From a virus, in the IMG/VR virus record IMGVR_UViG_3300045988_049685, positions 1 through 42,501 of that record: a stretch of DNA of 42,501 nt, one strand, 5' to 3'. Position numbers and translations under genes: made by a program. Numbering within the stretch: the first letter of the stretch is position 1; every line of letters starts with the position of its first letter. Below the pieces are notes generated by a model. It had not been told where the DNA came from, searched no databases, and was given only the letters and a program-made list of their open reading frames with translations. This document shows positions 7,799 through 29,282 of the stretch, in pieces.

Positions 7799-7999
7799 CT
7801 AAGACGAGGACGCATTGGAAATGATCTCGTTAACAGCGGTTTTGAACTGTTCCTCTGCCCCCTTCGGTTCCCTGTGTCCATTCAGGACTAAACTGACATA
7901 TTCCCGCGTTACACCGATATGATCGGCGAGCTGTTTCTTGGAAATTTTATGCACATGCATCAAACCGACCAAATCTCCCGTCCAATTTTTAGGCAACAT
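7799..7999 (-). CDS. Cro-like short HTH regulator
   Basis: 66 aa with the HTH ISKKQLADHIGVTREYVSLVLNG. Divergent from the repressor gene across a 198-bp operator region. Confidence 0.75.
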   Translation of the reverse strand: MLPKNWTGDLVGLMHVHKISKKQLADHIGVTREYVSLVLNGHREPKGAEEQFKTAVNEIISNASSS

Positions 8000-8024: not shown

Positions 8025-8164
8025 GTTGAAAAATGTGAACTTATATGCTATCATAAAAGCGCCAACAAATATGACGCATATGTGTTCACCGTTTTCAACT
8101 CATGACCCCATTATAGTTTACGTTTTTCACCTTGTCAAGGGGTTTAGTTGAATTTTGTGAACTT
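8025..8164. promoter_or_regulatory. immunity switch region with three 18-bp operator-like repeats
   Basis: O1 8025-8042 GTTGAAAAATGTGAACTT. O2 8082-8099 is inverted (rc GTTGAAAACGGTGAACAC). O3 8147-8164 GTTGAATTTTGTGAACTT. Each contains a TTGAA(A/T) -35-like hexamer; for example TTGAAA-17-TATCAT at 8026-8054 (+). Confidence 0.6.
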
Positions 8165-8197: not shown

Positions 8198-8551
8198 GTG
8201 TTCTATGACAGGTTTGCATATCTGTGTAAACAAAAGGGTGTGTCCGTAAGCCGCGGCGCCCTAGAAGCGGGGATTAGCAAATCCCTTGTAACAAAGTGGA
8301 AAACAAACAATACGGAGATCCCTTCTCCGGATGTAATCGGAAAACTAAGCAAGTATTTCGGTCTCCCCGTCTCTGAATTGCTTGGCGAAGAACCATCAAA
8401 AACTCCTGGCGAAACAGAAAAAGCCCCGATGCCTAATGACATCGGGGAGGAAAATATTCTTCGGATGTACCGTTCTTTGTCTACTGAGGAAAAAGGGGCG
8501 TGGTACGCTTACGCGCTTACACTGAAAGAAATGCAAAAAGAAGGAGAATAA
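8198..8551 (+). CDS. CI-like XRE-family repressor (no peptidase domain)
   Basis: Start set to the in-frame GTG 8198 (AGAGG 7 nt upstream). N-terminal HTH FYDRFAYLCKQKGVSVSRGALEAGISKSLVTKWK. The short helical C-terminus has no S24 motifs. It is on the same strand as int. Confidence 0.8.
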   Translation: MFYDRFAYLCKQKGVSVSRGALEAGISKSLVTKWKTNNTEIPSPDVIGKLSKYFGLPVSELLGEEPSKTPGETEKAPMPNDIGEENILRMYRSLSTEEKGAWYAYALTLKEMQKEGE

Positions 8552-8553
8552 TT

Positions 8554-8781
8554 ATGGGTATGAAGGAAACAACCTATCAGGTAGACTGCCCGATTACCGG
8601 CAGACCCGAAAATGTCTTTATTCGCTCCACGCTGTGGGAAGAAGTGTTTGTTGCTTCCTTTACTGGCTGCAACGGTCAGTGGAGCAGCTCCCCGGAATGT
8701 GAGGCCTGCCGGAAAGCTGCTCAGGCCAGGTTTACCGAAGAGCATTCAGGATCACCGTCAATCCATTGGAACAGGCCTTGA
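8554..8781 (+). CDS. hypothetical Cys-containing protein
   Basis: Start at ATG 8554 (AAGGAG upstream), 3 nt after the repressor stop. 75 aa. Its 3' end overlaps the convergent gene by 50 nt. Confidence 0.6.
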   Translation: MGMKETTYQVDCPITGRPENVFIRSTLWEEVFVASFTGCNGQWSSSPECEACRKAAQARFTEEHSGSPSIHWNRP

Positions 8782-9007
8782 GGAATGCTTCCTGGTTAAG
8801 CTCTGCGTACCATTTGATTCGGCTCATGGCTTCTTCCAGCATTCCCTGCTGCGTGAGCCAGCCCAGATCGTGCAGAATCCATGCTGAAAACTCCAATGCC
8901 TCCGGGTCGAGCTTTTCTACGGTGCTCTTTTTCATCGTTGGATGGAATAGCTTTTCCCCCTGCTCTTTGGTTAACTCAAGTTCCATAGAAGTTACTGGCT
9001 TACACAT
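8732..9007 (-). CDS. hypothetical protein, second gene of the SOS-box operon
   Basis: 91-aa ORF with GGAGGTG 6 nt upstream of ATG 9007. Confidence 0.55.
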   Translation of the reverse strand: MCKPVTSMELELTKEQGEKLFHPTMKKSTVEKLDPEALEFSAWILHDLGWLTQQGMLEEAMSRIKWYAELNQEAFLKACSNGLTVILNALR

Positions 9008-9010
9008 TTT

Positions 9011-9187
9011 TTACACCTCCACAGTTGGTTTTTCGTTGGTTTCATCACTTATTATACCACAATCTGCGGTTTTATCAAGTGGTGGCCGTTTGGACAGCAG
9101 ATCGGAAAAGAAGCACAGAAGCCTCCGTTTGTTTTCATCTGTTAATGTCCGGTAAACGCTGATAAAGCCCTTTTCGTCCGCTGTCAT
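9011..9187 (-). CDS. small HTH-less protein resembling the repressor C-terminal helix (candidate antirepressor)
   Basis: Start moved to ATG 9187 (AAAGGAGAGG upstream). 58 aa. GFISVYRTLTDENKRRLL aligns with repressor NILRMYRSLSTEEKGAWY. Confidence 0.55.
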   Translation of the reverse strand: MTADEKGFISVYRTLTDENKRRLLCFFSDLLSKRPPLDKTADCGIISDETNEKPTVEV

Positions 9188-9217
9188 TTCTACCTCTCCT
9201 TTACTTTTTATCATTAT

Positions 9218-9231
9218 CGAACGCCTGTTCG
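9218..9231. promoter_or_regulatory. Cheo-type SOS (LexA/DinR) box CGAACGCCTGTTCG
   Basis: Perfect CGAAC-N4-GTTCG palindrome 31 nt upstream of ATG 9187. It sits just downstream of a minus-strand extended -10 (TGTTATAAC, fwd 9244-9252). Confidence 0.6.
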
Positions 9232-9311
9232 GCTTATGCGCTAGTTATAACATACTATCTGTCCAATAAACCGGACTAATTAAAAAATTGCACAAAAAAT
9301 TTTTCTTTTCA

Positions 9312-9340
9312 TTGAAATTATATGTCGAGCGTGGTATTAT
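9312..9340 (+). promoter_or_regulatory. sigma70-type promoter TTGAAA-17-TATTAT
   Basis: TTGAAA 9312-9317, 17-nt spacer, TATTAT 9335-9340, upstream of dinD. Confidence 0.6.
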
Positions 9341-9400
9341 TTCCCTGTAGAATTGTCCAGTTTGGCGCTGATATAAATAGTTGGAAAGGACGTATGACGC

Positions 9401-10243
9401 ATGGAAGGATATGAATTGGAAAGCTATTCCGAGCAAACATTTGAAAGCATAAAGCACATTGACGAATATGGCCAGGAATATTGGCTCGCCAGAGAACTTG
9501 CGCGAGTTCTTCAATATGCGGACTGGAGAAACTTTGAAAATATTCTCTTTAAGGCGATGGACGCCTGCAAGAACAGTGGAATTTCTATCGAAGACAATTT
9601 CGGCGAAGTTACCAGTTTCACAAAAATGAACACCGGAAGTGTCCGTAAAATTAGTGATTATGCACTAACTCGCTATGCGTGTTACCTGATTGTGATGAAC
9701 GGCGACCCTTCTAAGCCCGTAATAGCTGTCGGTCAGACATATTTTGCGGTAAAAACGCGTCAGCAGGAATTGATTGACAACTACGACCAGCTTTCCGAAG
9801 ATCAGAAACGATTGGCAATTCGTGATGAGATGACCGCTCACAACAAGTCTCTTGCGGAAGCGGCACAAATGGCCGGAATTGAAGATCCACGGGACTACGC
9901 AATATTTCAAAACAAGGGCTATCAGGGGCTATACGGCGGACTGGGAATGAAGGAGATTCACGCACGAAAAGGCTTAAAAAAGAGCCAGAGAATACTGGAT
10001 CACATGGGAAGCACTGAACTTGCAGCAAATCTCTTCCGCGCCACCCAGACGGATGAAAAGCTTCGCCGCGAAGGCATTCGCGGCAAGCAAGCTGCAAATA
10101 ATACGCACTATGAAGTTGGGAAGAAGGTGCGTCAGACCATAAAAGATTTGGGTGGCACCATGCCGGAAGACCTGCCTACGCCGGAAAAGAGCATTGCTCA
10201 AATTGAGCGTGAGCAAAAGAAGCTGAAAGGCGAACGCGAGTAA
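9401..10243 (+). CDS. dinD: DNA-damage-inducible protein D homolog
   Basis: 280 aa, collinear with E. coli DinD as I recall it: RYACYLIVMNGDPSKPVIAVGQTYFAVKTRQQEL, FQNKGYQGLYGGL and ILDHMGSTELAANLFRATQT. Confidence 0.93.
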   Translation: MEGYELESYSEQTFESIKHIDEYGQEYWLARELARVLQYADWRNFENILFKAMDACKNSGISIEDNFGEVTSFTKMNTGSVRKISDYALTRYACYLIVMNGDPSKPVIAVGQTYFAVKTRQQELIDNYDQLSEDQKRLAIRDEMTAHNKSLAEAAQMAGIEDPRDYAIFQNKGYQGLYGGLGMKEIHARKGLKKSQRILDHMGSTELAANLFRATQTDEKLRREGIRGKQAANNTHYEVGKKVRQTIKDLGGTMPEDLPTPEKSIAQIEREQKKLKGERE

Positions 10244-10302: not shown

Positions 10303-10437
10303 CCGCCGGAATGGTGTGTCCCTTGCCGGTTGCAATATCACCATAGCATTTTCAGCTATAGAAAGTAAACCACACATCTGATTCCGTCGGAATCAAATGT
10401 GAACAATCCAGTATCAAATTTAATAGGAGGGCGAATT

Positions 10438-11124
10438 ATGGATTCAAATACAGGCCAAACATTCATCGAGGAAATGCAGCCGAATTTCGATGCCCTCCCG
10501 GAAAGGCTGAAAGACGAGAAATTCCGGAACCATCTGACGAATCAGCAGCTTTCTGACGTGTCCGGCGTTCCTATCGCCACAACAAGCCGGATTCTTTCCG
10601 GTGCCGTATCGAACCCCGGCTTTTTCCATATCGCCGCGCTGTGCGCCGCTATGGGCGTGTCAATGGATTCCGTTGCAGGTGTTCACCCAAGCGGAGATCA
10701 GGCGGAAATAGACCAGCTCCGGCAGGAGATAGCATACAAGGACGAGATAATTGCCGAGAAGGGCGCGGCGATAGACCGCTTACTGGACAGGAGCCGCATT
10801 ATGGAGGCTGGTGTCGCGGCCAGAGATGACCGCATCGGCAAACAAAATGAAGAAATAAAGAATGTCCGCAGCTCATACAAAATCCTTGTGTACGGGCTGT
10901 GCGGCGTTTGCATTACGCTGACATTTGTGTTGGCAATCTATGTGGCTCTGGATAGCCAAGCGCCAGACCAGGGGCTGATACAGTCTGATAATGTTTCTCC
11001 GGTCGTATGGGCAGGTGCGGCGGCTGTTATTGTACTGCTGTTCGGCCTTCTGCACTTCACTGTAAGCAAATTATCAAAAAAGAGGGATACGCTATGGGAA
11101 GAAAGAAAAAAGAGCCGGGGGTAA
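10438..11124 (+). CDS. membrane-anchored HTH protein (HTH, coiled coil, two TM helices)
   Basis: Start at ATG 10438 (TAGGAGGG upstream). HTH LTNQQLSDVSGVPIATTSRILSG. Heptad-rich middle. C-terminal TM segments ILVYGLCGVCITLTFVLAIYVAL and VVWAGAAAVIVLLFGLLHFTV. Confidence 0.75.
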   Translation: MDSNTGQTFIEEMQPNFDALPERLKDEKFRNHLTNQQLSDVSGVPIATTSRILSGAVSNPGFFHIAALCAAMGVSMDSVAGVHPSGDQAEIDQLRQEIAYKDEIIAEKGAAIDRLLDRSRIMEAGVAARDDRIGKQNEEIKNVRSSYKILVYGLCGVCITLTFVLAIYVALDSQAPDQGLIQSDNVSPVVWAGAAAVIVLLFGLLHFTVSKLSKKRDTLWEERKKSRG

Positions 11125-12161
11125 AACTCCCGGCTATAATACAACTCCCGTCAGGGTCATGGCGAACAAGAATCTATATCGACGGCCGCACAGTATCCAT
11201 AACGAAAGACACCTACGACGAATGCGCGGCGGAATACCTCGCCATGAAGCACGGGGTCATTGAAGCGAAAGCCGCCCCCATGAAGCACGGGGTGCCGCTG
11301 GGGGATGCTCTCGACAAATACATTTCGACCCGGAAGGGGTTCAAGTCGCCGTCAACGATTTATGCGTATGAATCCTACCGCAAGCAGCGCTTCCAAAGCA
11401 TGATGGTGGCTGACGTGTACACCACCACGGACGAACAGTGGCAAGCCGCCATCCGCAGGGAAGCAAAATCACTGTCCCCGAAATATATCAAAAACGTGTG
11501 GATGCTGATCTCCGCCGCGATATTCGAGGAAACCGGACGCAGACCGCGGGTGACCCTGCCGGAAAAGGAACACAACGAAAAGCCGTACCTTGACCCGGAT
11601 CAGATACCGGTGTTCCTGCAAGCCATAAAAGGGGAATCGATAGAAATTGCCGCCCTGCTGGAATTATCCAGCTTGCGCAGGTCGGAGATGCTGGCGCTGA
11701 CGTGGGACAAGGTCGATTTCAAGAACGAAATAATATATGTCCACGGGGCAAGAGTGGCCGGGGACGGCGGCAAGCTGGTTCACAAGAAGCAGAACAAAAA
11801 CGATTCCTCCCGGCGCACGGTGCCGATTATTGAGCCGCTGATGGAAGCACTAAAGGCAGTTGATAGCAAGGAAGGCTATGTCGTCAACCTGACCGGCGGG
11901 TGGATATGCACAAGGATAAACGAGATTTGTTCCGCCAACGGCCTGCCGAAAGTCGGGAACCACGGATTGCGGCACAGCTTCGCATCTCTGGCTTATCACC
12001 TCCAGATACCGGAAAAGATAGCAATGGAAATTGGCGGGTGGGCAGATGACGGGACGATGCACAAAATATATACACATCTGGCACAGAAAGACATTGCAAA
12101 ACGGGCGCAGGATTTCCGGAACTTCTTTGTGTCAAATGCGGATAAAAAAGCACAAATTTGA
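11094..12161 (+). CDS. int: tyrosine-type site-specific integrase
   Basis: Start at ATG 11094 (MGRKKKEPG...). Catalytic motifs RRSEMLALTWDKVDF, HGLRHSFASLAY and GGWADDGTMHKIYTH. The start overlaps the upstream gene by 31 nt. Confidence 0.93.
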   Translation: MGRKKKEPGVKLPAIIQLPSGSWRTRIYIDGRTVSITKDTYDECAAEYLAMKHGVIEAKAAPMKHGVPLGDALDKYISTRKGFKSPSTIYAYESYRKQRFQSMMVADVYTTTDEQWQAAIRREAKSLSPKYIKNVWMLISAAIFEETGRRPRVTLPEKEHNEKPYLDPDQIPVFLQAIKGESIEIAALLELSSLRRSEMLALTWDKVDFKNEIIYVHGARVAGDGGKLVHKKQNKNDSSRRTVPIIEPLMEALKAVDSKEGYVVNLTGGWICTRINEICSANGLPKVGNHGLRHSFASLAYHLQIPEKIAMEIGGWADDGTMHKIYTHLAQKDIAKRAQDFRNFFVSNADKKAQI

Positions 12162-29206: not shown

Positions 29207-29282
29207 TGGAGGGCTGTACAGGCTTCGATCCTGTGACCTGCGGATTAACAGTCCGCTGCTCTACCAGCTGAGCTAACAACCC
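29207..29282 (-). tRNA. tRNA-Asn (anticodon GTT), CCA encoded
   Basis: Hand-folded. Acceptor GGGTTGT/ACAGCCC. D arm GCTC-AGCTGGTA-GAGC. Anticodon arm GCGGA-CTGTTAA-TCCGC. T arm ACAGG-ATCGAAG-CCTGT, with an unusual A at T-loop position 54. Confidence 0.85.

What the first reader, a model, noticed from the sequence alone, without database searches (positions are those of the whole stretch)
8732..9252. Perfect SOS (Cheo) box in front of an HTH-less paralog of the repressor tail: a LexA-gated antirepressor circuit?
The CI-like repressor (117 aa) has no S24 or other self-cleavage domain, so RecA-stimulated autocleavage is unlikely.

A perfect CGAAC-N4-GTTCG palindrome (CGAACGCCTGTTCG, 9218-9231) is the Gram-positive LexA/DinR consensus. 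I expect such a perfect box only about 0.04 times by chance in 42.5 kb. It sits just downstream of a minus-strand extended -10 (TGTTATAAC) and 31 nt upstream of a two-gene operon at 9011-9187 and 8732-9007.

The first product (58 aa) has no HTH. Its core GFISVYRTLTDENKRRLL aligns with the repressor C-terminal helix NILRMYRSLSTEEKGAWY through a shared YR(S/T)L(S/T)xExK motif. This fits a dominant-negative or heterodimerising antirepressor that is released when LexA is inactivated.

LexA-controlled antirepressors are known for some enterobacterial phages (for example 186 Tum). I do not know of one built from a repressor-tail mimic in this phage group.
Basis: partly seen in the sequence, partly recalled or inferred. 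Interest (0 to 1): 0.72.

Follow-up and report, generated by a model that had tools for sequence, protein, structure and literature searches.

The report
SOS-gated tail-mimic antirepressor of gut phage
A temperate phage of human-gut Clostridia appears to sense DNA damage through a conserved host LexA site that controls a 58-residue protein resembling its own repressor's dimerisation tail; this logic is already known from Bacillus (SinI/SinR, phage phi106 AimX/AimC), but the protein family is new.

Summary
CGAACGCCTGTTCG (9218-9231) is the only perfect Cheo-type palindrome in the window, where about 0.01 is expected by chance. It lies between an extended -10 (9252..9244, minus strand) and the RBS and ATG of a 58-aa ORF (9187..9011).

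In 38 related loci (window included) the half-sites GAAC and TTCG and the 44-45 nt distance to the ATG never change, while the spacer and flanks vary. The neighbouring genes also differ among the loci examined. So the box belongs to the 58-aa gene, not to the adjacent dinD homolog.

The repressor (8198-8551) has no cleavage domain. Across relatives, unrelated HTH heads are fused to a tail under strong protein-level constraint (pS up to 0.49, pN at most 0.056).

The small protein and the tail are both predicted two-helix hairpins, in the same register as their sequence similarity. That similarity is weak for the window pair and clear for a distant family member (score 62, 0 of 5000 shuffles). 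Phages whose repressor has a different tail carry a different small ORF that best matches that tail.

The 91-aa "second gene" is an inserted cassette, not part of the core.

My best reading is a LexA-gated, SinI-like antirepressor, analogous to AimX/AimC of phage phi106. I rate it a new variant of a known kind. Everything here is inferred from sequence.

The parts
9218..9231 (.). LexA (Cheo-type) operator CGAAC-N4-GTTCG, predicted at about +6 to +19 of promoter P1
   Evidence: It is the only match in the window, where 0.01 is expected. Relatives conserve it as (C/A)GAAC-N4-(G/A)TTCG, 44-45 nt from the ATG in 38 of 38 loci, with a free spacer. It fits the B. subtilis and Clostridium LexA consensus (PMC4234289).
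9244..9252 (-). Promoter P1: extended -10 TGTTATAAC with no good -35. The upstream element TAATTAGTCCGGTTTATTGGACA is also conserved (about 9258-9280).
   Evidence: Read from the sequence. TG-N-TATA is conserved in all lineages. The upstream element is shared even with the type B and C modules. Promoter activity is inferred.
9011..9187 (-). 58-aa predicted antirepressor. Residues 3-32 form a helix hairpin that resembles the repressor tail; residues 33-58 are disordered.
   Evidence: The ORF and RBS are conserved. There are 40 homologs at 71% identity or more and none in any family library. pN/pS is 0.33-0.48 between diverged lineages. AF2 gives H3-14 and H17-32 with pLDDT above 90.
9051..9078 (-). 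Internal promoter-like site P2 (TTGATA-N16-TGGTATAAT; -16 region TGTG) inside the 3' half of the 58-aa ORF, reading towards the second ORF and the repressor gene
   Evidence: Promoter scan: 11 of 12 hexamer matches plus TG. The hexamers are invariant in five loci representing four lineages. The extended -10 persists as DNA in L018 and L019 although the encoded residues change. Function is not tested.
8732..9007 (-). 91-aa second ORF. The first 7 codons (MCKPVTS) come from the ancestral second ORF and are fused to a member of a 78-aa cassette family. It is cargo, not core.
   Evidence: Relatives have instead a 52-69-aa ORF, M.KPV.S.EEII.AI.EGVRSANL. The 78-aa family stands alone elsewhere, convergent with an ~87-aa gene.
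8554..8781 (+). 75-aa Cys-rich ORF downstream of the repressor. It is the convergent partner in the inserted cassette and overlaps the 91-aa ORF by 50 nt.
   Evidence: also present in L017. It replaces the 68-aa gene of the relatives.
8198..8551 (+). Prophage repressor, 117 aa: HTH head (residues 1-61), disordered linker (65-81), two-helix tail (84-115) with the invariant sequence EKAPMPNDIGEENILRMYRSLSTEEKGAWYAYAL
   Evidence: HTH_3 only. AF2 model. Mosaic heads on an invariant tail. Tail pS reaches 0.49 with pN 0-0.056.
8424..8447 (-). Intrinsic-terminator-like hairpin plus T-run for the minus-strand transcript. It lies inside the repressor's linker codons, at the head/tail mosaic junction.
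   Evidence: Terminator scan. Conserved in all six type A loci examined (L001, L003, L009, L011, L015, L017). dG -18.3 kcal/mol, z = -4.7.
8026..8138 (.). Divergent promoter region between the repressor and the cro-like gene (7999..7799). It is the presumed target of the repressor.
   Evidence: TTGACA-17-TATAAT on the minus strand (8138..8110) and TTGAAA-17-TATCAT on the plus strand (8026-8054). The cro-like gene has an HTH_3 match. Operators were not mapped.

Best explanation
This is the SOS-sensing induction module of a temperate phage of gut Clostridia (Lachnospiraceae-type hosts).

In the lysogen, host LexA is proposed to bind the palindrome at 9218-9231, just downstream of the extended -10 promoter P1, and so keep the 58-aa gene silent. 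DNA damage activates RecA, LexA cleaves itself, and P1 fires.

The 58-aa protein is a two-helix hairpin homologous to the two-helix C-terminal tail of the phage repressor. It is proposed to pair with that tail in place of a second repressor subunit. The repressor has no cleavage domain. Pairing would break up the repressor dimer or tetramer, release it from the operators at about 8026-8138, and open the leftward early operon.

This is the SinI/SinR and AimX/AimC principle placed under LexA control.

What is shown: the box and its conservation, the gene order, the lack of a cleavage domain, the sequence and predicted-structure resemblance, the co-variation, and the selection pattern.

What is inferred: LexA binding, SOS inducibility, the heterodimer, and loss of DNA binding.

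The same transcript also runs antisense over the 3' end of the repressor operon as far as a conserved terminator, so an RNA-level contribution is possible as an addition.
For: Operator:
- It is perfect and unique in the window.
- In 38 loci with 19 distinct upstream sequences and 11 box variants, GAAC and TTCG are invariant, the spacer is free, and the box starts 44-45 nt from the ATG.
- It stays with the 58-aa gene while the divergent neighbour changes: dinD in the window, a 226-aa ORF in L017 (Pfam not checked there), and a 205-232-aa gene plus serine recombinase in L001-L016.
- It matches the GAAC-N4-GTT(C/T) LexA sites of Bacillus and Clostridium.

Repressor:
- HTH only, no S24 domain.
- At least 5 unrelated heads sit on one tail.
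- Tail pS is up to 0.49 against pN 0-0.056; L015 against L018 shows 10 synonymous and 0 nonsynonymous changes.

Mimicry:
- hhalign aligns small-protein residues 5-28 with repressor residues 84-107, P = 0.0017.
- Shuffles reach the observed score in 2 to 94 of 5000 trials, depending on lineage.
- Distant member P0048 (profile E = 1.4e-5, same genomic slot) scores 62 against its cognate tail, 0 of 5000 shuffles.
- AF2 hairpins H3-14/H17-32 and H84-92/H96-115 are in the same register.

Co-variation:
- The window's head also occurs with tails B and C. Each of those is followed by a different 49-aa convergent ORF, behind the same upstream element and a palindrome AAAC-N4-GTTT.
- The cognate tail is the best match in 5 of 6 rows of the cross-comparison.
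- Tails D and E are followed instead by a HIRAN protein or a Peptidase_M78 protein.

The ORF is a real gene: pN/pS is 0.33-0.48 and the RBS is conserved.

Precedent: LexA site, small AimX ORF and convergent AimC, with AimX binding AimC's C-terminal oligomerisation domain.
Against: - There are no experimental data of any kind.
- The window's own small-protein/tail similarity is weak: no BLASTP hit and hhalign probability of 15%.
- The type B and C cognate scores are only z = 2.7 and 2.2, and one type A row (P0037) scores higher on tail B than on tail A.
- The only host lexA promoter I could inspect (L011) has no canonical box, only CGAAAATATGTGCT. The LexA motif of these hosts is therefore assumed from other Firmicutes.
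- Several lineages carry ATTC instead of GTTC, and types B and C carry AAAC/GTTT. These could bind LexA weakly, or bind another protein.
- P1 has no recognisable -35.
- Tail, small gene and box are adjacent on the DNA, so part of their co-occurrence is simple linkage.
Confidence: 0.62

Rival explanations
1. The effector is RNA, not protein. SOS-induced transcription from P1 (and from the internal promoter P2) runs convergently into the repressor operon. It lowers repressor expression by transcriptional interference or antisense pairing. The 58-aa ORF would be incidental or secondary.
For: The units are convergent with no terminator between them; the 91-aa and 75-aa ORFs overlap by 50 nt. A strong, conserved minus-strand terminator lies inside the repressor gene, exactly at the head/tail junction. 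A near-consensus internal promoter is conserved as DNA. An antisense model was proposed earlier for aimX.
Against: The ORF, its RBS and its helical core are kept under purifying selection down to about 40% identity. The tail's DNA diverges freely at synonymous sites (pS up to 0.49), so there is no pairing constraint. The resemblance to the tail and the co-variation have no RNA explanation. For phi106 the authors judged the antisense interaction most likely not consequential. This rival could still act together with the protein mechanism.
Confidence: 0.15
2. The box controls the divergent dinD homolog (9401-10243), as LexA controls dinD in E. coli. Its position in front of the 58-aa gene would be coincidental.
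For: The neighbour is a DinD equivalog (NF008573, E = 6e-123, 410 bits against a cut-off of 242) with a Bro-N domain. The box lies in the shared intergenic region.
Against: The box is conserved at a fixed distance from the 58-aa ATG in 37 relatives. The 21 relatives whose gene maps I examined carry no dinD, and the 15 viral loci L038-L052 were checked only upstream of the small ORF. The box lies about 80 nt upstream of the -35 of the predicted dinD promoter (9312-9340). That promoter is conserved in front of other cargo genes in L017, L030 and L032. No other box with 2 or fewer mismatches lies in 9232-9400.
Confidence: 0.05
3. The 58-aa protein is SOS-induced but is not an antirepressor. It could be a LexA-binding modulator like GIL01 gp7, a host-directed SOS effector, or a small toxin. 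Prophage induction would then go through another route.
For: There is no functional annotation in any library. GIL01 gp7 shows that small LexA-linked phage proteins can act on LexA itself (PMC4551915, listed).
Against: The gene is tightly embedded next to the repressor gene in every relative. It resembles the repressor tail and co-varies with it. The tail is strongly constrained. The A-type module contains no alternative induction device: no S24 domain and no ImmA-like protease. Modules with other tails do carry an ImmA-like or HIRAN gene.
Confidence: 0.1
4. The palindrome is the operator of a phage-encoded or other host regulator rather than LexA. One candidate is the conserved HTH-plus-transmembrane protein at 10399-11124.
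For: Types B and C carry AAAC-N4-GTTT, and several lineages carry ATTC. The host lexA promoter in L011 has no canonical box.
Against: The window's site is a perfect 14-of-14 Cheo box. The invariant positions are exactly the LexA-contacted GAAC and TTC. C. difficile box predictions include GAAC..GTTT and GAAC..ATTT. The site is retained across phages with different accessory regulators.
Confidence: 0.08

Closest known systems
AimX/AimC of phi106-family arbitrium phages of Bacillus (bioRxiv 10.1101/2025.11.23.689978)
   Same: A short HTH repressor that does not respond to RecA directly. A LexA site sits just upstream of a small ORF that is convergent with, and overlaps, the repressor gene. The small helical protein binds the repressor's C-terminal oligomerisation domain and takes the place of the second subunit. 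The repressor has the same HTH, unstructured linker and helical C-terminal plan (compare).
   Different: Nothing resembling AimR or AimP appears among the flanking genes listed, though I did not search for them specifically. I did not compare the sequences directly with AimX or AimC. The small protein here is 58 aa rather than 29 aa in phi106. It shows detectable sequence homology to the tail it is proposed to bind. The hosts are uncultured gut Clostridia. AimX/AimC is supported by experiments; this module is not.
SinI/SinR (and SlrA/SlrR) of Bacillus subtilis
   Same: A ~111-aa HTH repressor with a two-helix C-terminal domain, and a ~57-aa antirepressor that is a paralog of that domain and forms a heterodimer that abolishes DNA binding (PMC3163267, abstract). 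The sizes here are 111-117 aa and 58 aa. SinR from the SinR-SinI complex (1b0n_A) ranks 5th in the Foldseek search with the repressor model.
   Different: SinI/SinR is chromosomal, under Spo0A control, and unrelated to SOS or prophage induction. There is no Pfam SinI (PF08671) hit for either protein here at E of 0.1 or better. The Foldseek E-values are weak (0.0095).
LexA-controlled antirepressors of enterobacterial prophages: Gifsy-1/Gifsy-3/Fels-1 (PMC3121763), coliphage 186 Tum, N15 AntC, SPC32H Ant/Rep
   Same: A repressor that cannot be cleaved is inactivated by a small protein whose gene is repressed by LexA. This is the general principle of Lemire et al. 2011 (title and abstract); the rest is from my own knowledge. 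The SPC32H repressor (5d4z) appears among the Foldseek hits.
   Different: These are Gram-negative hosts with CTGT-N8-ACAG boxes. The antirepressors are unrelated in sequence. They are not reported to be paralogs of the repressor tail. Their genes are usually far from the immunity region.
ImmR/ImmA (ICEBs1, phi105-type) and DdrO/IrrE repressor-protease pairs
   Same: An XRE-type repressor with a helical C-terminal domain is inactivated by the product of an adjacent gene. The same HTH head as in the window occurs with tail E followed by a Peptidase_M78 gene. DdrO is the top Foldseek hit.
   Different: The window and the A-type relatives examined have no metalloprotease gene in the module. The partner is a 58-aa protein with no HEXXH protease motif in its sequence.

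Membership tests
LexA (Cheo/DinR-type) operator of Firmicutes | Palindrome CGAAC-N4-GTTCG (core GAAC-N4-GTTC) | tested here: met
   14-of-14 match at 9218-9231. Consensus taken from PMC4234289.
LexA (Cheo/DinR-type) operator of Firmicutes | Placed so as to occlude a promoter, and conserved in orthologous promoters | tested here: met
   It lies 12 nt downstream of the extended -10. Half-sites and distance are invariant in 38 loci, with a free spacer. The promoter itself is only predicted.
LexA (Cheo/DinR-type) operator of Firmicutes | Bound by host LexA, with the gene induced by DNA damage | not testable with these tools
   Needs EMSA and RT-qPCR. The one host lexA promoter available (L011) has only a degenerate site.
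SinI/SinR-type antirepressor pair (tail-mimic principle) | The antirepressor is homologous to the repressor's C-terminal oligomerisation helices | tested here: met
   hhalign P = 0.0017. P0048 against its cognate tail: score 62, 0 of 5000 shuffles. Matching AF2 hairpins. The window pair on its own is weak.
SinI/SinR-type antirepressor pair (tail-mimic principle) | Sequence membership in Pfam SinI (PF08671) | tested here: not met
   No Pfam hit at E of 0.1 or better for the 58-aa protein or for the repressor tail. So it works like SinI but is not a SinI family member.
SinI/SinR-type antirepressor pair (tail-mimic principle) | Formation of a heterodimer that abolishes DNA binding | not testable with these tools
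Needs AF-multimer, two-hybrid or SEC-MALS.
AimX/AimC extended arbitrium module | LexA site, small ORF and convergent short HTH repressor | tested here: met
   compared with the description.
AimX/AimC extended arbitrium module | AimR receptor and AimP peptide genes adjacent | tested here: not met
   No gene of AimR size or with a TPR-type Pfam hit appears among the flanking genes listed. Those are a 205-241-aa HTH or membrane protein, a recombinase and cargo genes. This is a reading of the gene lists, not a dedicated AimR/AimP search.
Lambda CI / LexA-type self-cleaving repressor | Peptidase_S24 C-terminal domain | tested here: not met
   Only HTH_3, HTH_26, HTH_19 and HTH_31 match. The C-terminus is a 35-residue helix hairpin.
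ImmR/ImmA repressor-protease pair | Adjacent Peptidase_M78 (ImmA/IrrE) gene | tested here: not met
   Absent from the window and from the A-type relatives examined. Present only with tail E.
DinD (for the neighbouring gene 9401-10243) | NCBIfam NF008573 equivalog score above the cut-off | tested here: met
   409.7 bits against a cut-off of 242, E = 6.4e-123.

The most novel reading that the evidence does not exclude
In this phage group the repressor tail is a portable "induction receiver" that moves together with its cognate inactivator. The same DNA-binding head is found wired to three different small tail-mimic antirepressors behind LexA-type palindromes (tails A, B, C), to a HIRAN-domain protein (tail D), or to an ImmA-like protease (tail E). 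The small antirepressors would have arisen by duplication of the tail itself. A conserved internal promoter and a terminator placed at the head/tail junction would add a second, antisense layer. If this is true, induction inputs in gut Clostridia phages are swapped as cassettes independently of immunity specificity.
Probability: 0.4. Interest if true: 0.68.

Novelty: new variant of a known kind. Interest (0 to 1): 0.5.

Why it matters
Very little is known about how prophages of the dominant human-gut Clostridia are induced, yet induction by DNA-damaging drugs and metabolites shapes the microbiome. This module gives a concrete circuit that is cheap to test, for a phage group seen in hundreds of metagenomic contigs (P0002 alone is listed in 477 index blocks).

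It extends the SinI/SinR and AimX/AimC principle to a new protein family and a new host clade, without arbitrium signalling.

The mosaic pattern of one head with five tails and matching partners suggests a general rule. The C-terminal tail of short XRE repressors, together with the gene just downstream, may predict which signal induces a prophage. That would help annotate the many "CI-like repressors without S24" in metagenomes.

Tried and rejected
- BLASTP of the 58-aa protein against the repressor found no alignment. I replaced it with profile and shuffle tests.
- Pfam, PHROGs and NCBIfam gave nothing for the 58-aa and 91-aa proteins.
- tblastn of the 58-aa protein against 50,697 deposited phage genomes found no match.
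- The PDB sequence search with the 58-aa profile gave only chance hits. Foldseek with its model was uninformative.
- The genome-contig scan returned a single MAG (L017, uncultured Lachnospiraceae). Host assignment is therefore thin.
- I looked at the host lexA promoter in L011 to confirm the host's LexA motif. It has only a degenerate site, so the result is inconclusive.
- I considered and rejected dinD as the target of the box.
- I considered and rejected the 91-aa gene as a core component.
- I considered that the tail's invariance reflects DNA-level conservation or antisense pairing. I rejected this because synonymous sites diverge freely.
- In the relatives, a 52-aa ORF follows the small gene and overlaps the 68-aa gene in antisense. 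The 68-aa gene is clearly coding (variable sites by codon position 9/3/23). Whether the 52-aa ORF is also translated remains open.
Full report
**The observation**

The sequence CGAACGCCTGTTCG is at 9218-9231. It is the only site in the 42.5-kb window within one mismatch of CGAAC-N4-GTTCG. A perfect site is expected about 0.01 times in dinucleotide-preserving shuffles.

On the minus strand the order is:
- an extended -10, TGTTATAAC (9252..9244);
- 12 nt;
- the box;
- 30 nt containing the RBS GGAGAGG;
- the ATG at 9187 of a 58-aa ORF (9187..9011);
- 3 nt later, with the RBS GGAGGTG in the last codons of the first ORF, a 91-aa ORF (9007..8732).

The neighbouring repressor matches only HTH_3-type Pfam models and has no S24 domain. 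Its likely start is GTG 8198, giving 117 aa.

**Which gene the box belongs to**

The gene on the other side of the intergenic region (9401-10243) is a strong DinD equivalog (NF008573, E = 6e-123) with a Bro-N domain. E. coli dinD is a LexA-regulated gene (my own knowledge), so this was the first rival to test.

The 58-aa protein has 40 database relatives, all at 71% identity or more and all unannotated. In contigs carrying them, the conserved arrangement is: recombinase and a 205-232-aa gene on one strand, the small ORF on the other, then a 68-aa gene and a 111-134-aa HTH repressor convergent with it, then the early genes YqaJ, RecT and SSB. There is no dinD and no 91-aa gene.

The palindrome sits at the same place in all of them. 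The same holds in a Lachnospiraceae MAG contig, where the neighbour is a 226-aa ORF, and in 15 IMG/VR viral contigs.

Over 38 loci, the window included, there are 19 distinct upstream sequences and 11 box variants. The half-sites GAAC and TTCG never change, and the box starts 44-45 nt from the ATG. All four spacer positions and the stretch between the -10 and the box vary.

That pattern is the footprint of a dimeric DNA-binding protein, tied to the small ORF. The predicted dinD promoter (TTGAAA-17-TATTAT, 9312-9340) lies about 80 nt from the box. It is conserved in front of unrelated cargo genes in L017, L030 and L032. I therefore reject the dinD rival.

**Is it a LexA site?**

It matches the B. 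subtilis GAAC-N4-GTTC and the Clostridium GAAC-N4-GTT(T/C) operators. The C. difficile in-silico box table includes GAAC....GTTT and GAAC....ATTT (PMC4234289).

I could not confirm the motif in the actual hosts. The one host lexA promoter available (L011, next to a prophage end) shows only a degenerate CGAAAATATGTGCT over its -10. LexA binding therefore remains an inference, though a well-founded one.

**The repressor and its tail**

Translating the repressor genes of the relatives shows a sharp mosaic. At least five unrelated HTH heads are joined to a nearly invariant tail, EKAPMPNDIGEENILRMYRSLSTEEKGAWYAYALSLKEKQKEGK.

The invariance is at the protein level. Synonymous divergence in the 38 tail codons reaches pS 0.45-0.49, while pN is 0-0.056. 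L015 against L018 shows 10 synonymous and 0 nonsynonymous changes.

The AF2 model gives a five-helix HTH (residues 1-61), a disordered linker (65-81), and a two-helix hairpin (H84-92, H96-115). Foldseek hits that span the full length include DdrO, SinR from the SinR-SinI complex (1b0n_A, rank 5) and the Salmonella phage SPC32H repressor. All have weak E-values, so they support only the domain plan.

**The small protein**

It is under purifying selection, with pN/pS of 0.33-0.48 between diverged lineages. AF2 predicts a confident hairpin (H3-14, H17-32, pLDDT above 90) followed by a disordered half.

Its similarity to the tail, E(K/E)xxxxxYR(S/T)L(S/T)xExK…L, is ungapped and in the same register as the predicted helices. 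For the window pair it is weak:
- no BLASTP alignment;
- hhalign P = 0.0017, probability 15%;
- 15 to 94 of 5000 shuffles reach the score.

Other lineages do better, at 10 of 5000 and 2 of 5000.

An exhaustive profile search of 1.84 billion representatives found only a few distant small relatives. Two of them, P0042 and P0048, occupy the same slot next to tail-A repressors, with a box at the same offset. P0048 matches its own repressor's tail with score 62, reached by 0 of 5000 shuffles. Homology between the small-protein family and the tail is thus supported by transitivity.

**Co-variation**

A search with the repressor returned 479 relatives. The window's head occurs with four further tails, B to E.
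- Tails B and C are each followed by a different 49-aa convergent ORF. Each sits behind the same upstream element (TAATTAGTCCGGTTTATTGGACA, TGCTATTATAC) and a symmetric palindrome AAAC-N4-GTTT.
- Tail D is followed by a HIRAN-domain gene.
- Tail E is followed by a Peptidase_M78 (ImmA-like) gene.

In a cross-comparison of small ORFs against tails, the cognate tail scores best in 5 of 6 rows. None of the small ORFs resembles tail D, and only P0048 gives a weak score against tail E (z = 3.1). The z-scores for B and C are only 2.7 and 2.2.

Tail and inactivator therefore appear to travel as a unit, which is what a receiver-inactivator pair predicts. Physical linkage explains part of this.

**The rest of the transcription unit**

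The 91-aa ORF is not core. Relatives have a 52-69-aa ORF, M.KPV.S.EEII.AI.EGVRSANL…, with the same RBS and start. The window keeps only MCKPVTS from it, fused to a member of a 78-aa family. That family stands alone elsewhere in related phages, always convergent with and overlapping an ~87-aa gene. The window's 75-aa ORF (8554-8781) is the partner in that cassette.

Two further conserved DNA features were not in the finding.
- A near-consensus extended -10 promoter (TTGATA-N16-TGGTATAAT, 9078..9051) lies inside the 3' half of the small ORF. It persists as DNA where the protein changes.
- A stable minus-strand terminator hairpin (8447..8424, dG -18.3 kcal/mol, z = -4.7) lies inside the repressor's linker codons, at the head/tail junction.

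The unit thus runs antisense across the 3' end of the repressor operon. An RNA-level contribution is possible. It cannot explain the protein-level evidence above.

**Mechanism proposed**

LexA represses P1. DNA damage removes LexA. The 58-aa hairpin is made and pairs with the repressor tail in place of another repressor subunit. Oligomerisation and operator binding at about 8026-8138 are lost, and the leftward early operon (cro-like gene 7999..7799 onward) is expressed.

The anatomy, conservation, selection and resemblance are shown. The binding steps are inferred. My confidence is about 0.6.

**Comparison with what is known**

The closest system is AimX/AimC of phi106-family Bacillus phages. 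There a LexA site lies just upstream of a 29-aa ORF that overlaps the convergent short HTH repressor. AimX binds AimC's C-terminal oligomerisation domain and takes the position of the second subunit. The authors call this reminiscent of SinI/SinR (bioRxiv 10.1101/2025.11.23.689978).

SinI/SinR itself has the same sizes and the same paralogy (PMC3163267). LexA-controlled antirepressors are established in Gifsy-type prophages (PMC3121763).

This module differs in several ways:
- it is a new sequence family, with no SinI Pfam hit;
- no AimR- or AimP-like gene appears in its neighbourhood;
- the antirepressor shows detectable homology to its proposed target;
- it is found in uncultured gut Clostridia phages;
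- tail and inactivator are exchanged as modules.

I classify it as a new variant of a known kind.

**Verdict**

My interest score is 0.5.

Noticed in passing
window 9401-10243 (+), promoter 9312-9340: A DinD equivalog with a Bro-N domain sits in a variable cargo slot behind a conserved divergent promoter, TTGAAA-17-TATTAT. The same slot holds a NYN-domain gene in L032, a 226-aa ORF in L017, and a 140-aa ORF in L030. In E. coli DinD modulates RecA (my own knowledge), so a phage copy next to the SOS switch might feed back on induction.
   Followed up: partly
window 8554-8781 (+) and 8732-9007 (-); L023-L029: A convergent two-gene cassette with overlapping 3' ends: a 78-aa family (LFHPTM…WILHDLGWLTQQGM…FLKACSNGLTVILNAL) plus a 75-87-aa Cys-rich partner. 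It is mobile among related phages and has no annotation. In the window it has replaced the ancestral second ORF and the 68-aa gene.
   Followed up: partly
L034 3370-3957; L036 3371-4750: Repressors with the same head as the window but tails D or E are followed by a HIRAN-domain protein (L034), or by a Peptidase_M78 ImmA-like protein plus a HIRAN/BRCT protein (L036). HIRAN binds DNA 3' ends (my own knowledge), which suggests alternative DNA-damage sensors wired directly to the repressor.
   Followed up: no
window 9051-9078 (-): A near-consensus Gram-positive extended -10 promoter (TGTGGTATAAT with TTGATA at -35) is embedded in the disordered C-terminal half of the 58-aa ORF. It is conserved as DNA even where the encoded residues change (L019). 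It would drive LexA-independent transcription of the second ORF, antisense to the repressor's 3' end.
   Followed up: partly
window 8424-8447 (-): A conserved terminator hairpin for the antisense transcript is encoded within the invariant EKAPMPNDIGEE linker, exactly at the recombination junction between variable heads and the constant tail (dG -18.3 kcal/mol, z = -4.7).
   Followed up: yes
L001 6181-6339, L018 1197-1406, L019 after 4183: A second small ORF, M.KPV.S.EEII.AI.EGVRSANL…, is translationally coupled to the antirepressor gene and overlaps the 68-aa gene in antisense. Its N-terminal ~25 residues are conserved across lineages. Whether it is translated, and what it does, are unknown.
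   Followed up: partly
L011 1372-1947: One relative is integrated about 1.3 kb from the host lexA gene. That lexA promoter carries only a degenerate box, CGAAAATATGTGCT, over its TGCTATAAT -10.
   Followed up: partly
L017 2183-2848 (-); P0158: A 197-221-aa version of the window's repressor carries an extra N-terminal HTH domain (tandem HTH). In the window the upstream part is replaced, and the ORF is cut to 139 aa at most.
   Followed up: no
window 10399-11124 (+): A 241-aa protein with an N-terminal HTH, a coiled-coil region and two predicted transmembrane helices lies between the cargo slot and the tyrosine integrase (11094-12161). A 205-232-aa gene holds the same position in relatives that use a serine recombinase. 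It may be a membrane-anchored regulator or an exclusion factor.
   Followed up: no
window 29207-29282 (-): A tRNA-Asn (GTT) gene lies among the structural genes of the phage.
   Followed up: no
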